From Verrucomicrobiota bacterium (GTDB taxonomy: Bacteria > Verrucomicrobiota > Verrucomicrobiia > Limisphaerales > CANJSG01), in NCBI GenBank assembly GCA_038209745.1, contig JBBQXJ010000017.1, positions 1 through 62,613 on the forward strand: DNA of 62,613 nucleotides, written 5' to 3'. Position numbers: made by a program. Shown piece by piece: positions 42,001 to 48,000 of this stretch; position 1 is the stretch's first letter, and each line of letters begins with the position of its first letter.

Positions 42001-45000
42001 TACTTGGGACCGGTCCATGAAGACGTCCTTCCGGTGCTTGAAGAGCCGCGAATCCGTTCCGACTGGAATCGGACGGTGAAGGAATGCCGGGAAATCTTTC
42101 CCGGCATCATCGATTTCACACGGGGTGACTTCAGCGGCCGCACCAATTTCTTCGAGACGTTGCACTTCGTCCCCGAGGTGGGGGTTTCATTGATCAACGA
42201 GCGGCTGCTGCCTGGGCCCGGTCAACCTGATCCGTGACGGAGCCGCCTCCGGTCCGTGGAAACCTAACGGCGGAACCGCCATCCTCCACAAAACAGAGCC
42301 CAAGCCGCTCCCAGCCCGACACAGCTCCAGCCGAGCCAGTCGCCATTCGTCTGATAGAAGGTGGGCGTTGCGACGGGGCGCGGGATTTCCAGTTCCGCCA
42401 AGAGAATGCCCGGGGCGTAGATGCTGCCGAGTTCGTCCCGCAGGATCTGCCGGAGCCGGCCGAACTCGTCGATCCAGCAGGTGAGGCCGTTGTTCGTGCA
42501 GCGCACGAGCGGGCGGCGGTTTTCGACGGCGCGGAAGAGCGCGCTGGCCGCCTGTTGCCATTGCTCGGAACTTTCGCCGAACCAGCCGTCGTTGGTCAGG
42601 TTGAGCAGGAAATCGGTCTCCTTGGCGACCGAGCCGCGGGCCAGCGGGGCGAACATGTCCTCGAAGCAGATCAACGGCGACGCCGTGAACATCTCCTCTC
42701 CGGCGTGGATCGGGAACGCGCCCGGACCGTCGCCCGACGCGAAGCCGCTCCCGATCGGCGTGAGCCATTTCATGAAGGGCAGCCAGCGTTCCAGGGGAAT
42801 GTATTCGCCGAAGATCACGAGCTGGCGTTTGCGGTAGCTGGCGATCGGGCGGCCGTTCGTGTTCACCATGAAGGCGGCGTTGAAATACCGCTCCACCCCG
42901 TCGACCGAATCCCCGTCGTCCGCGCCGAAGAGCAACGGCACGCCGCCTTCCCGCAGCACGCCGACCAGTTCGAGGTAGTCTTCCCGGGAGATGCTGGGCA
43001 GCGAGGCTTCGGGCCAGACCACGGCGTCCGGCTGGTTCGTCAGGGCGGCACGGGTCAATTCCAGCAGCGCGTGGAAACGGTTGGTCGACTCGGCCGGATC
43101 CCAGATGAGGAGCTGCGGAATGCTCGGCTGCACCAGTGCCAGCTTCAGCGTGCGATGCTCGCTGGCCCCTGTCCGGATCGTCTCCATCCCTCCGACGTAG
43201 ACCGCCACCACGGCCAGCAGGGGCAGAAGGATTTCGCCCGACAAGGTCCGCCGTTTGCCCGGTTCCCGCAGCAGCACCGCCATGGCTCCGAGCAGGCAGG
43301 TGGAGAACCACACGATCAGAAACGTGACCCCGCCGACGCCCGTGATCGCCGCGAGCTGGATCAACGGCGTCAGCCGGAACTGGGATACGCCGAGATTGTT
43401 CCAGGGGAACCCGGACATCAGCCGGTTCTGCACCAGCTCCAAACCCGTCCATAGCGCCGCACAACCGAGCGCCCAGGCCTGGCGCCGCGCCCAGGGGAGC
43501 CGACCCAGCCGTTGGAGAGTCGTGCCGCCCGACTCCGCCGGCAGAGTTCTCCAGCAGAGCCATGCCCACAGCGCGGGATACAGCGCGACATAGGCGGACA
43601 GACAAAACCAGCCGCCGACCGCACCGGCCGGGAACGGGATGAAGAGGAGCCAGTGCAACATGCCCAGCCAACCCGCAAGACCGGCCCAGTAGCCGGCCAC
43701 GAAAGGTCTCGCTCCCGCTTGGGCGGCGAAGAGAACGAGCGCGGGCACCAGCCAGGCGAGCCCCGCGACTTCAGCGCCGGGAAACGCCAGCGTCCAGACC
43801 GCTCCGGTCAGGAGCGGGAGCCAAGCGGCCTTGAGAATGGAGGCGAACCGTTGCAACGCGGGGGAGTTTGCCCGGAGGCCGCAAACCGATACCAGCCCGC
43901 CGTCATGTGTCGCCGAACGGATTCGACTTCTTCGCCGCCCCCCGCGGTTTGGCGGCGGGCGCGTTTTCGAAGGGATTTCCCTCCGTTTCCGCCGGAGCTT
44001 CCCCACGATCGAACCGAAACACGGCCACTCCGAGAAAGACCCAGCCGACGACGAAATGGGCGGCGGCGACGAAGGCGAGGCCCGGGAGATCCACGATCCG
44101 CAGGGCATAGAGCACGAGCGCGAGGATCATCAACCCGCATCCGGGCATCAGCCCTGCGGCCGCCACTTTCCAGCAGCCCACCACGCCGATCTTTCGCCGG
44201 GCGATCAGCGCGACGATCCTCAGCGGCAGACAATACAGCGTCGCCAGGGCCGTCCAGACGCAGACCAGCCAAACGATCGTGGCCAAGATTGCGCCCGCGA
44301 GGACCAGCGGTTTCCACGCCGCCCATTTCGGACCGAGATGCGACGGGCCCAGCGCGATGGTTGTGTCTCGTGGATAAGATTGCTCCACGCAGCCGAGCAA
44401 CGAACACGCCTTCCATCCGGATCGGTGGAACAACAGCCGGACATCCGAAGGGTGCGTGTCCGGCAGCTGCGCGTCGGCGTCGACGTCGATGCTCAGAAAC
44501 GGGCTCGAGGCGGTGAACGTGCCGTCGAGACCGAACAGCTCGCCCAAGGAGAGGACCGCGCCCTCCGGCAGTTCTCCGGTGATCCGGTTGACCACCGGCA
44601 CGCACATCTGGGAGAGGAAAAAAACGACCGCGAACCCCGTGGCCACGGCGAAACAAAGGAGGACCACGTAGAGCCGGGTGAACGACGCCAAAGCGAATCC
44701 CGCCGCGCCTTTCGGCGTCAGAGGGAGCCATGGCTTCGAAAAAATCGCCCAGGTCATTCGCACCTGTTGGTCTAGCGGCCACCGGACGCCTTCGGCAAGA
44801 CCGCTGTGGGCGGAGGCGGCTTGCTTCCGGACCGGTCGCGGACGATGTTCCTTCCTCGACCCTGATGACCATGAAGCCTTTTCTGACGATCCTCCTCGCC
44901 GCCACCACGCTGTTCCTTGCCGGCTGCGCCAGCAGCACGGTCGAGAGTCGGCGCATCGAAAAGACGGCCGCCTACAACTCCCTCCCGGCGGACCAACGCG

Positions 45001-48000
45001 CTCTGGTGGATCAAGGCCAGGTCCGGGTCGGAATGAACCAGGACGCCGTCTATATCGCCTGGGGCATGCCCCAGCAGAAAACCCAGGCCGAGGACGGCAA
45101 GGGCCTGAGCGAAACGTGGGTCTTCAACAGCTCCACGCTCGACACCTACAACTACTGGACCTTCCGCGAGCGCACCGATCCCAAGGGACGGAGCTACCTC
45201 GACCGCGTGATGGAGTCCGACAGCCAGATCAACAGCTACGTGTCGGCCGAGATCACCTTCTCCGACGGCGTCGTGAAAGCATGGCGGACCTTCCCCACCC
45301 CTCCCAGCCGCAGCGGCTTCCGGTCGCTCTACTGAGCGTGAACCAAGTTGATCGTTTCAAGCACTGGAGGAAGCTAAGTTCAACGGCCCTTGTTCTGGGC
45401 GAAAGTGAATTGGGAACAGTCCCGCTCCCCACGCTATGCGAGGTATCGAGTATTTTCTGATTCGTTTCGGATTGTTCATTCTTATTGGCGGAGGCAGCGC
45501 TTAATTGCTGTGGTTTCTGATCCGTCATTTTGAGATCCGTGAGCATCGAGGACTGAATCTTGCCGGTGCATTGTTTGGGCTGGCTTACTTGTCTTTTCTT
45601 TCATGGTTTACCGGGAAGACGGCCGAACACATGGTGTTCGAGGATAGAAAACTGGGCGCTTCATTGAGGTTGGCGGTTTTGGATTTGCGCTTCTTTATGG
45701 GGTTTCTGCCATTTGTCGGCCGTTGGCTCATGCCGCCGTCGGACAAGAGGGACGATGACGACAAGACGGCCTAGCTAGTCGATCCAGCGATTCAGCCGTC
45801 GCGGTTGCAATTGGCGCGCCTCGTGGCCGCGTCGCTGGGCTTGGGCCGTTGGCCTACTTCGCGCGCCATGAACATATCCGACCTCAAAAGACCGTTTGGA
45901 GACGAGTATCCGGCCGCGGTAATGGTTGACGGAGCTCGGCTGCCGCTCCGCCGGGAGCGTCGGTTCTGGCGCAGCTACAAGTCGGATGAACACAAAATGG
46001 TCAGTCAGGTTTCTCGTTTCATGGACGGTTCGGCTTCGATCAGCGTTTCAGAGCTGCATCAGGAGTGGCCGGGTTGGACGGAGGATATGAGGTCGGATTT
46101 TTGTCAGTCGTCTGGTTGGCTGGACGAGCAGTCCGATTTTCCAGAGATGCTCCGCTTCATCATGCGGCATGGCGCCCCGGAGCACTGGTCTGCCATCGCC
46201 TTGAGCGTTGCATCGCGAGTTCCACGCAACGAGGCGTTCGATGTTCTTGTTGGCGCTTTGGGGAGCACGGAGATTGGGCTCGGCTCCAACATCGCCCAAG
46301 CAATCGGCCACACGAGGCACCCGGACGCAGAGGCTGCGCTTCGTAGACTCTTGGCAGTGCTGTGGTCGAATCCTTCACTGTGGGAGGAGGATGATTTCGT
46401 CAATTGGGTGGGTTTCGAAGTGACGACGTGCATTGAGCAGCTCATTGATGTGGTGGCTCCATCTTCTGATTTCACCGATCAGGTGCGTCGGCTTTCCGAC
46501 CATGTTTGTTCAGGCAACCGAGAGTCGTGCCGCAACTTCCTATCGAAGCACTATTCTTGGCTCAACTGAGAGCTGTGTGCGTGGCCTGGGCTAAACATGC
46601 GCCAAGCTCAGAGCCGATCCTCCATCGCTCAGCCGATCGCCACCCAGACTTCGCCGGCTTCCACTTTCGTCCGATACGACTTCACCGGTTTCTCCGGATT
46701 GCTGCGGCAGGCGCCCGTCTTCACGTCGAAGGCCCAGCCGTGGAGCGGGCAGTAGACGCAGCCGTTCTCCACATGACCGGCGCCGAGCGGGGCGCCTTTG
46801 TGGGAGCACTCGTTGTCGATGGCGAAGAACGCGCCGTCGAGATTGACCAGCGCGAGTTCGTGCCCGGCCATTTGAATGGTCCGGCACTGGCCGGGAGCCA
46901 GGCTGTCGGCGGTGGCGGCGCGGTGCCAGTGGGCGGCGGGGTCGGAGGCGGGAGTCATGGGCGGCGCTTCAGGATCTTCTCGATGGCGGCCTGCCGCGTT
47001 TGCCGGGCCAGCGCGAGCGCGCCTTTCCTGCCGTAGACGCGGACCGAGAACCGGCGCCGGGTGATCTCACCGGGACGGTCCGACCAGACGGCTTCGGCGT
47101 ATTCGTAAATGTAGTAGCGGCCGTTCCGTTTGGTTTCCTTCAGACAGATCCGGACCCCGCGTTTCGGATCGAGCAGGCGTTCGGCCTTGACCGTGGCCGA
47201 GGGTTTCAGCGTCTGCTCCAGGCGGTCGCGTTCGGCCATGGCGGCCTTCAGCGAGGCGGCTTCGCCACCGTGGCCGTGGTCGCCGATGTAGACCTGGGTC
47301 ATCTTCCCTTTGCGGGTGAAGCGAACGAGCCAACCACCCGTGGCGCGATCGACGGCGGGGTTGGCTTTGACGCGGGCGATGTTCCGCAGCTTGGGCGGGG
47401 CTTTCACGGAGTGGTGGCGGGCGGGGTGGACGAGCCGGTCGCCGACGGGTCGCCGTGGGGCTTGGCCTTCTTCCAGGGCATGTCGGGGAACTTGGTGGGG
47501 ATCTTCATGGCGGCCGGTTTGGGCTGGGCCATCTGGAGCTCGGGATCGCCCTGCGGCGCGGCCTTGGGATCGGGGGCCGCCATGTTCTCCTTCCATGAGG
47601 AAATGCGGGCCTGGAGGCCGTGGTGTTCGGCGGTCTTCTTGTCGCCGGACTTCATGTAGAAGAGGGAGAGATTCGTATGCACGAGCTGCTCGTTCGGGCG
47701 GAGCTTCTCGGCTTTGTGGCCTTCCTCGATGGCCCGGGCGAAGTCGCCCTTGCGATAGTAGGCGCCACCCAGAGCGAGGCGCGCGTCGAAGTAGTCGGGA
47801 TCCTCGGCCAGGACGGAATCCAGCTTCTCGATGGCGGCGTCGAACTGGCCCATGCTGAAGTCCAGCATGGCGTCGTCATATCGGTCTTGGAGCGACTGCA
47901 TACGGCACTGTTGCGCGAAGCTCCGGGAGGTTCAAGGGGCCAGCCGGCGTTTCACCGGGGCCCGCTGTCGGCCCGCCAGATCAGCCAGCCGCCGATCGCC

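What a model noticed while it worked through the whole genome (the two positions that open the first line are those of the whole stretch)
44865..45867. The genome is purged of GTAC, tracking signal-peptide PabI-type glycosylases without a methylase in its congeners
GTAC occurs at 0.11 of expectation throughout this genome and is almost absent in the six congeners. Five congeners encode an R.PabI-family (GTAC-excising) protein with a signal peptide and no adjacent methylase; this genome lacks it at the syntenic site downstream of g01224 and, like congener G002, carries the exported MjaV-type protein instead. Across the order near-total GTAC loss coincides with the exported PabI gene.
Evidence so far: O/E 0.11, the lowest 4-mer; 595 sites, evenly spread; after G, Tyr is TAC 282 vs TAT 2770, after C 16031 vs 5687. 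GGTACC counts in 71 order genomes: 1, 1, 4, 6, 9, 9, 12 in seven genomes, 69-1065 in the rest, 80 here. PF09522 found in 7 of the same 71: six of those seven plus G079; also in G001, G004, G005, G006, not G002. The PabI-like ORFs start with hydrophobic leaders and no methylase was seen in four loci read. In G003 and G006 the gene lies next to the g01224 orthologue; tblastn finds no remnant here. MjaV-like gene only in G000 and G002 of the genus.
(Added by a program. Inside this text positions count along the whole contig: contig position 1 is position 1 of the stretch shown here. "Call 12" and the like, gene names such as g00115 and contig names such as C1 are that model's own, and its searches are not shown. 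The text may have been shortened before it was handed on; [...] marks where a part breaks off. The agent that wrote the report below was given it as the finding of a first reader that could run no searches.)

Follow-up and report, generated by a model that had tools for sequence, protein, structure and literature searches.

The report
Exported restriction enzymes lacking methylases
Many Verrucomicrobia send a GTAC-attacking restriction enzyme out of the cytoplasm, have dropped the methylase that normally shields their own DNA, and have erased GTAC from their genomes; this genome lacks that gene, keeps the erased signature and carries a second, unrelated exported enzyme of a GTAC-cutting family.

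Summary
Confirmed and extended. GTAC is this genome's rarest 4-mer (595 sites, O/E 0.11). The flagged coordinates hold no enzyme, only a variable slot near which congeners carry it.

Of 201 order genomes, 13 are purged; 11 of these encode a PabI-family glycosylase with a signal peptide. Of 72 leader-bearing loci, 60 hold no GTAC (84 seen, 1310 expected), and 71 keep the catalytic triad. The leader arose once from a cytoplasmic R-M pair. Three genomes that still have the linked methylase (one frameshifted) are not purged.

Its GTAC sites look re-accumulated.

Best reading: restriction without modification, with self spared by export plus sequence purge. Activity, location and target DNA are untested. 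Exceptions: one lineage keeps the gene unpurged, and three leaderless carriers are purged too. The earlier-findings look-ups returned nothing similar.

The parts
44865..45335 (+). g01224, a small lipoprotein-like gene (LAGC lipobox read from the sequence). Landmark only: its orthologue lies convergent to the exported PabI gene in congeners
   Evidence: ORF; 70-72% DNA identity to congener loci; no Pfam hit over cut-off
45336..46570 (.). Lower-GC variable cassette (55.5% vs 64-66% in the flanks) at the place where congeners carry PabI and other swapped small genes; no PabI remnant
45505..45774 (+). 89-aa membrane-type ORF of the cassette, no family
45805..46569 (+). 233-254-aa ORF of the cassette with a weak HEAT-repeat match (E 0.012, under cut-off)
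10521..10524 (.). GTAC site, 1 of only 3 in the window (67 expected)
14558..14561 (.). GTAC site, 2 of 3
62385..62388 (.). GTAC site, 3 of 3
1..62613 (.). Genome-wide GTAC depletion as seen in the window. The two genes of this genome that bear on it lie on other contigs: exported MjaV-family endonuclease (G000:C32:20754-21524, +) and alpha-class SPPF methyltransferase (G000:C59, open frame 24781-26055, -)

Best explanation
A cytoplasmic PabI-type restriction-modification pair in a Verrucomicrobium gained a cleavable Sec-type signal peptide on the restriction gene, once (shown by sequence and tree). Export keeps the folded enzyme away from the chromosome (inferred), so the methylase could be lost, which happened in nearly all descendants (not found in the genomes searched). 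The enzyme excises adenine from GTAC in double-stranded DNA that crosses the envelope, such as phage, plasmid or taken-up DNA (chemistry inferred from conserved residues and fold; the target is not shown). The cell makes no protective m6A mark, so invaders cannot pick one up (inferred). A small cytoplasmic leak makes each unprotected chromosomal GTAC slightly costly, so sites were removed wherever the sequence could change, but not in rRNA (pattern shown; leak inferred). The lineage of this genome lost PabI. It holds an exported MjaV-family endonuclease and a probable GTAC m4C methylase, so the pressure relaxed and sites are returning (inferred from sister genomes).
For: Association: 11 of 13 purged genomes among 201 carry the exported gene; median 1.5 vs 53 GGTACC per Mb. 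60 of 72 leader loci have no GTAC, 84 seen vs 1310 expected. Genome-wide, 23 of 25 further carriers (chosen by me, known exceptions included) have under 6 per Mb.

Leader: a hydrophobic stretch ending in an A-x-A-like site exactly where leaderless homologues start; 32-100% identical between congeners against 89-97% for the mature part.

Enzyme: triad Tyr/His/Asp kept in 71 of 72, with the base-reading residues and lyase lysine of R.CcoLI nearly invariant; model matches R.CcoLI at E 5.8e-19, TM 0.77; dN/dS 0.06-0.17 in 7 pairs.

Methylase: the cognate beta-class gene is not found in 15 of 15 exported carriers, nor in 23 of 28. The three genomes with it still linked have 185, 276 and 496 GGTACC. 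In H. pylori, deleting the methylase next to an active cytoplasmic enzyme is lethal despite a GTAC-poor genome (PMC2588503, passages).

This genome: its sister G002 and the five other congeners have 3-11 GGTACC against 80 here. MjaV and PabI never co-occur (46 and 15 of 201; chance p 0.017 if kin were independent). The alpha methylase is the linked partner of leaderless MjaV in 14 of 15 loci, where GTAC is the rarest 4-mer (0.43).
Against: One lineage (G054, G124, G172, G216: 394, 509, 95, 425 GGTACC) keeps the exported gene with all key residues seen, is not purged (O/E 0.40-0.58 in the three sampled), and no protecting methylase was identified.

Three leaderless carriers are purged (1, 2, 2 GGTACC), two of them without the cognate methylase, so export is not needed for a purge. 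G046 and G116 are purged with neither gene found. G227 is purged although it has an intact-looking unlinked cognate methylase. Six of 14 exported carriers have the alpha methylase, and whether m4C blocks PabI was not in the passages read.

MjaV carriers without the alpha methylase (10 of 46) are not purged. Signal peptides were judged by hydrophobicity and motif, not by a dedicated predictor. G000 is 92% and G002 79% complete. The species tree is a quick single-gene tree with many open forks, and kin are not independent.
Confidence: 0.6

Rival explanations
1. Negative uptake-sequence drive. The exported enzyme destroys GTAC-bearing DNA during natural uptake, so GTAC-free kin alleles recombine in more often. 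The purge is biased gene conversion and needs no leak into the cytoplasm.
For: ComEC is found in 26 of 27 genomes searched. rRNA sites, which have no viable alternative allele, persist in purged G118, G043 and G073. R.HpyAXII restricts DNA in natural transformation (PMC2588503, passages). Molecular drive is invoked for uptake sequences (search listing).
Against: ComEC is equally present in 2 of the 3 unpurged g49 genomes. Leaderless carriers are purged too, which points to chromosomal toxicity. Competence of these bacteria is not shown.
Confidence: 0.14
2. Legacy purge. GTAC was removed under an earlier cytoplasmic R-M system, as in Helicobacter. Export merely disarmed the enzyme, which now binds or recycles outside DNA and no longer shapes the genome.
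For: Leaderless carriers G232-G234 are purged. Helicobacter strongly avoids GTAC while keeping the methylase (PMC10273834, passages). The g49 lineage shows the exported gene can coexist with many sites.
Against: Exported genes that keep the methylase sit in unpurged genomes, so there the purge had not come first. Kin without the gene hold more sites than carriers (G000 80, G167 199, G180 67 GGTACC). Catalytic residues are under purifying selection.
Confidence: 0.11
3. Secreted weapon. The enzyme leaves the cell (vesicles or a secretion system) and damages the genomes of neighbours; a GTAC-free genome is the immunity.
For: It would explain why the purge is so complete and why no methylase is kept. 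The PabI review speculates on such attack (PMC10273834, passages).
Against: The mature protein is the bare enzyme with no delivery domain. Purged genomes keep 6 GTAC in 16S rRNA alone (G118), so immunity would be incomplete. No conserved secretion or immunity neighbour was seen in the loci read.
Confidence: 0.08
4. Hidden methylation. Carriers are protected by an unlinked methylase (the alpha-class m4C enzyme or one I could not recognise), making this an ordinary R-M system with split genes and strong site avoidance.
For: The alpha methylase is in 6 of 14 exported carriers, 82% identical within the genus. G227 has an unlinked cognate-type gene. The assemblies are incomplete.
Against: It was not found in 8 of 14. 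Genomes with the alpha methylase alone are not purged (median 49.7 per Mb). It does not explain the conserved signal peptide.
Confidence: 0.07

Closest known systems
PabI-family (HALFPIPE) restriction glycosylase systems: R.PabI, R.CcoLI, R.HpyAXII with M.PabI-type methylases (PMC4615327 part 1 of 6 read; PMC10273834, PMC7806768, PMC4357717, PMC2588503 passages)
   Same: Fold, catalytic triad, base-reading residues, lyase lysine; GTAC avoidance in the host; rRNA genes keep their sites.
   Different: [quoted passage not shown] Here the protein has a signal peptide, the ancestral partner is a beta-class methylase, and it has mostly been lost.
PacI, a solitary restriction endonuclease of Pseudomonas alcaligenes (PMC3488263, passage)
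   Same: No cognate methylase; survival is explained by absence of sites in the host genome.
   Different: PacI is an HNH nuclease with an 8-base site that is rare anyway. Here a 4-base site had to be removed by the thousand, in many genomes of two orders, and the enzyme carries an export signal.
MjaV R-M system of Methanocaldococcus jannaschii (GTAC, m4C; PMC11033074, passages; Pfam PF27324)
   Same: G000:C32 protein matches the MjaV models, keeps a PD...DxK-type site and folds like EcoRV/BglI.
   Different: It has a signal peptide (114 of its 120 best homologues have a hydrophobic leader). Its probable methylase lies on another contig. GTAC specificity is inferred, not tested.
Periplasmic and extracellular non-specific nucleases such as EndA, Dns, ExeM (recalled; ExeM seen in the listing)
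   Same: Exported DNases that limit or process outside DNA.
   Different: Not sequence-specific, not derived from R-M systems, and no genome-wide motif loss is known to me (recalled).

Membership tests
PabI/HALFPIPE restriction glycosylases (congener protein) | Half-pipe fold | tested here: met
   pLDDT 89; Foldseek 7cfa E 5.8e-19, 3waz 8e-18; next unrelated hit E 0.013
PabI/HALFPIPE restriction glycosylases (congener protein) | Catalytic Tyr/His/Asp triad (R.PabI Y68, H211, D214) | tested here: met
   71 of 72 leader loci; L084 has His replaced
PabI/HALFPIPE restriction glycosylases (congener protein) | GTAC base-reading residues (R.CcoLI K17, R19, E47, Q49, I50, Q158, Q164, M166, Y168, F215) | tested here: met
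   All ten kept in 68 of 72 leader loci; the K17 position differs in L063, L097, L098, L100, and the Y168 position also in L100
PabI/HALFPIPE restriction glycosylases (congener protein) | Adenine excision at GTAC, blocked by m6A | not testable with these tools
   Only indirect: GTAC is the rarest 4-mer (0.067) in 1.07 Mb of leader loci
Type II restriction-modification system (exported PabI) | Linked cognate methyltransferase | tested here: not met
   Cognate-type gene linked in 3 of 72 leader loci, one frameshifted; not found in 15 of 15 and 23 of 28 genomes
Type II restriction-modification system (exported PabI) | Restriction enzyme acts in the cytoplasm (no export signal) | tested here: not met
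   Hydrophobic, cleavable-looking leader in 72 of 80 loci; 4 lack it and 4 are cut or broken at the start. Judged by heuristic, not by experiment
Type II restriction-modification system (exported PabI) | Self is marked by methylation of the site | not testable with these tools
   No methylome at hand; an unlinked alpha methylase is present in 6 of 14
Solitary REase of the PacI kind | No methylase and host genome devoid of sites | tested here: inconclusive
   Sites nearly gone, but rRNA genes keep them and one lineage is unpurged
MjaV family endonucleases (G000:C32 gene) | Match to the family model and PD-(D/E)xK fold and site | tested here: met
   PDLC03511 E 1.5e-18, which among 14 controls rings only in M. 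jannaschii; PF27324; invariant P113, D114, K131; EcoRV/BglI-like fold
MjaV family endonucleases (G000:C32 gene) | Cuts GTAC | tested here: inconclusive
   GTAC is the rarest 4-mer around 15 leaderless homologues (0.43) but only 0.59 around 24 close exported ones
GTAC m4C methyltransferase (G000:C59 gene) | Alpha-order motifs with SPPF, and pairing with a GTAC endonuclease | tested here: inconclusive
   Motifs present; homologues (46-58% identical) lie directly upstream of leaderless MjaV in 14 of 15 loci; the site itself is untested

The most novel reading that the evidence does not exclude
Verrucomicrobia run a methylation-free immune system at the cell envelope. Two unrelated GTAC enzymes, a PabI glycosylase and an MjaV endonuclease, were independently given signal peptides and replace one another across the order. 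In the PabI form, self is defined by genome sequence alone, so invaders cannot escape by acquiring the host's methyl mark, and whole genomes have been recoded at thousands of positions to fit.
Probability: 0.45. Interest if true: 0.92.

Novelty: new variant of a known kind. Interest (0 to 1): 0.82.

Why it matters
Type II restriction is taken to need methylation to tell self from non-self and to act in the cytoplasm. Here many genomes appear to break both rules with a 4-base enzyme, and the intermediates (exported with methylase, exported with a broken methylase, exported alone) are all present. If the function holds, this is a defence layer at the envelope that phage cannot defeat by host-controlled modification. 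It is also a natural case of genome-wide recoding driven by one gene. It makes the cause of restriction-site avoidance (toxicity or biased DNA uptake) testable, because close kin with and without the gene differ about 10- to 50-fold in site density. In practice, DNA meant for these Verrucomicrobia may need to be GTAC-free.

Tried and rejected
Searches that found nothing:
- PabI remnant in this genome: none.
- PabI in viral contigs: 56 candidate stretches, none confirmed.
- MjaV-type protein on plasmids: no match. Pfam and NCBIfam copies do not name it.
- Expression: no RNA holder listed; no evidence either way.
- A methylase shared by the unpurged g49 genomes: none shared by all three among the 23 loci returned for PF07669 and PF01555 (of 37 matches); PF02086 had no match.
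- Earlier findings of the scan: 7 unrelated notes and four empty look-ups.
- Papers on Verrucomicrobia methylomes did not give the site of the alpha methylase (passages).

Ideas tested and dropped:
- Loss of competence as the reason for the g49 exception: ComEC is there in 2 of 3; the HHH_3 search was uninformative.
- A purge reaching into rRNA: it does not (4 of the 17 pattern hits were not rRNA).
- MjaV as the cause of the purge: carriers are not purged.
- Recent arrival of the gene in g49: dS is lower than for gyrB in the one valid pair (0.43 vs 1.19), but two of these genes hold GTAC themselves and G124 shares the aconitase neighbour with purged G039 and G120, so this is undecided.
- L063/G214 as a true exception: set aside. 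A 10.3-kb GTAC-free block, 94-96% identical to purged G215 over most of its length, sits at a contig end of an unpurged genome; chimera or recent transfer.

Faults in my own calls:
- Rows labelled G172 are another genome (L083 = G216).
- Polarity of single sites could not be read: only 2 G000 sites lay in 35 kb aligned to congeners.
- The GyrB tree is the quick version and disagrees with some family labels.
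Full report
1. The observation. The genome (4.58 Mb, 63% GC, 92% complete; relatives are titled Verrucomicrobiota, many Limisphaerales) has 595 GTAC sites, O/E 0.111, the lowest of all 4-mers. The sites are spread almost at random. Codon choice shows selection on the motif: after G, Tyr is TAT ten times as often as TAC, against 3:1 for TAC after C. The window has 3 sites where 67 are expected. 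The flagged coordinates hold a small lipoprotein-like gene and the start of a 1.2-kb lower-GC cassette, and no restriction gene. In four congeners the PabI gene ends 0.1-1.9 kb from the orthologue of that gene, but the wider neighbourhood is rearranged here. It is a variable slot, not a clean deletion scar.

2. The enzyme in relatives. PF09522 is found in 5 of 6 congeners and 15 of 201 order genomes. Thirteen full-length copies begin with a basic stretch, a hydrophobic stretch and an A-x-A-like site; one is cut by its contig end (G172, counted below among the 14 exported carriers because it belongs to the same clade); one (G139) starts where the others' mature part starts and overlaps a beta-class methylase. 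A scan of one genome per species found 149 relatives, of which the best 80 were returned. Of these, 72 have a hydrophobic leader, 4 are cut or broken at the start, and 4 have none. The catalytic triad is kept in 71 of 72 and the ten base-reading residues of R.CcoLI in 68 of 72 (numbering from PMC7806768, passages, mapped through). The model matches R.CcoLI and R.PabI. dN/dS is 0.06-0.17 in seven pairs. The leader drifts while keeping its character. On a FastTree tree rooted on a leaderless copy, the leader-bearing proteins form one clade. In a profile search of 1.84 billion representatives, 15 true leaders were seen among the 119 of the best 150 hits that could be scored, all with this clade's start.

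3. The purge follows the gene. Thirteen of 201 genomes have under 3 GGTACC per Mb; 11 carry the exported gene and 2 (G046, G116) have neither gene found; 3 of the 14 carriers are not purged. Medians are 1.5 and 53 per Mb. Fisher's p of 7e-14 overstates the case, because kin are not independent; on a quick GyrB tree the carriers fall into about five groups mixed with non-carriers. In the 72 leader loci (some from those same genomes), 84 GTAC are seen against 1310 expected, and 60 loci have none. Of 25 further carriers that I chose, known exceptions included, 23 have under 6 GGTACC per Mb genome-wide, among them several titled Chthoniobacterales or Spartobacteria.

4. The methylase. The beta-class partner of the leaderless gene has no orthologue in the 15 exported carriers (best full-length identity 29-33%). 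In 28 more it is linked in 3, unlinked in 2 (one with a stop) and not found in 23. The three linked cases, one frameshifted, are unpurged: 185, 276 and 496 GGTACC. This gives an order of events, export first, then methylase loss and purge, though the tree does not place these three at the very base. In H. pylori, removing the methylase beside an active cytoplasmic enzyme is lethal, and rRNA genes keep their GTAC sites (PMC2588503, passages). Purged G118, G043 and G073 also keep them. A carrier without methylase therefore needs a second shield, and the leader is the obvious candidate.

5. This genome. It encodes an MjaV-family protein with a leader (C32:20754-21524). The protein has 1926 homologues, an invariant PD...K site and an EcoRV/BglI-like fold. 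The family is in 46 of 201 genomes, none of them among the 15 PabI carriers. New here: an alpha-class SPPF methylase on C59. Its homologues lie directly upstream of MjaV in 12 of 18 loci of the more distant group, and in 14 of 15 leaderless loci from several phyla, where GTAC is the rarest 4-mer. M.MjaV is listed as GTAC m4C (PMC11033074, passages). So it is probably a GTAC m4C methylase. It is in 107 of 201 genomes, 36 of 46 MjaV carriers and 6 of 14 exported-PabI carriers. MjaV carriers are not purged. G000 and G002 are sisters on the GyrB tree (support 92) and the other five congeners form a clade. All six relatives have 3-11 GGTACC against 80 here. The simplest history is a purged ancestor, loss of PabI and return of sites in G000. 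G002 is only 79% complete, so its gene content is uncertain.

6. Against. The g49 lineage keeps an intact-looking exported gene with O/E 0.40-0.58 and no methylase that I could identify; dN/dS for G124/G054 is 0.34. Three leaderless carriers are purged, two without the cognate methylase, so the purge tracks unprotected PabI activity rather than export as such. G227 is purged with a cognate-type methylase present. Nothing here shows where the protein sits or what DNA it meets. ComEC is in 26 of 27 genomes and does not separate the groups.

7. Mechanism. Shown: leader, intact enzyme signature, no cognate methylase found, purge, exceptions. Inferred: export, GTAC excision on incoming DNA, and a low leak as the cost that removes sites. 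Rivals are biased recombination during DNA uptake, a legacy purge, a secreted weapon and hidden methylation.

8. What is known. The PabI surveys describe pairs with gamma-class methylases (PMC4615327, part 1 of 6). The 2023 review has no occurrence of 'periplasm' or 'Verrucomicrob' and says the family lacks linked secretion genes (passages). The 2014 type II review has no occurrence of 'periplasm' or 'signal sequence'. PacI is the precedent for a methylase-free enzyme in a site-free genome. Nine searches of the open library listed no paper on signal-peptide restriction enzymes or on this purge. Subscription journals, REBASE and supplements were not seen. The proteins are members of known families. 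The exported PabI system fails two defining tests of type II R-M, while working like its restriction half.

9. Verdict. The signature is real and strong, and the enzyme link is well supported. The window itself shows only the aftermath. New variant of a known kind, interest 0.82; close to a new kind of defence if envelope restriction is shown.

Noticed in passing
G000 whole genome; G046 (L189, L190): CTAG is also low: 0.24 here and 0.08 in 40 kb of G046, deeper than the 0.4-0.5 seen in pooled loci.
   Followed up: no
L063:2960-13276 (G214:C5): GTAC-free block with the exported PabI gene, 94-96% identical to purged G215 over most of its length, joined to DNA of an unpurged genome: chimeric contig or recent transfer.
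   Followed up: partly
P0332, P0364, P0360: PabI domains fused behind a methylase-like N-terminal part (522-624 aa): possible single-chain restriction-modification glycosylases.
   Followed up: no
L105, L106 (G233, G234): Leaderless PabI genes without the cognate methylase in purged genomes, next to a different R-M pair: a cytoplasmic, PacI-like solitary state.
   Followed up: partly
G000:C59:24781-26055: The alpha-class methylase is in 107 of 201 order genomes at about 55-65% identity: a persistent orphan methylase of this order whose site is unproven.
   Followed up: partly
L166, L167: Two alphaproteobacterial loci with ACGT at O/E 0.10, suggesting another strong purge.
   Followed up: no
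G000:C1:145517-145759: 80-aa fragment of a cytosine-5 methylase (GFPCQ motif), apparently a remnant.
   Followed up: no
L271 (G003:C14): Ten GTAC in 3 kb inside an otherwise purged genome: a foreign contig or a recent import.
   Followed up: no
window 46955-47596 (-): Basic protein without a Pfam hit whose two repeats recall AP2-type DNA-binding domains (recalled, untested).
   Followed up: no
G139 vs G081; G041, G116 vs G165, G202; G046 vs G120: Genomes sharing a genus label fall apart on the quick GyrB tree: weak tree, gene transfer or mixed bins.
   Followed up: no
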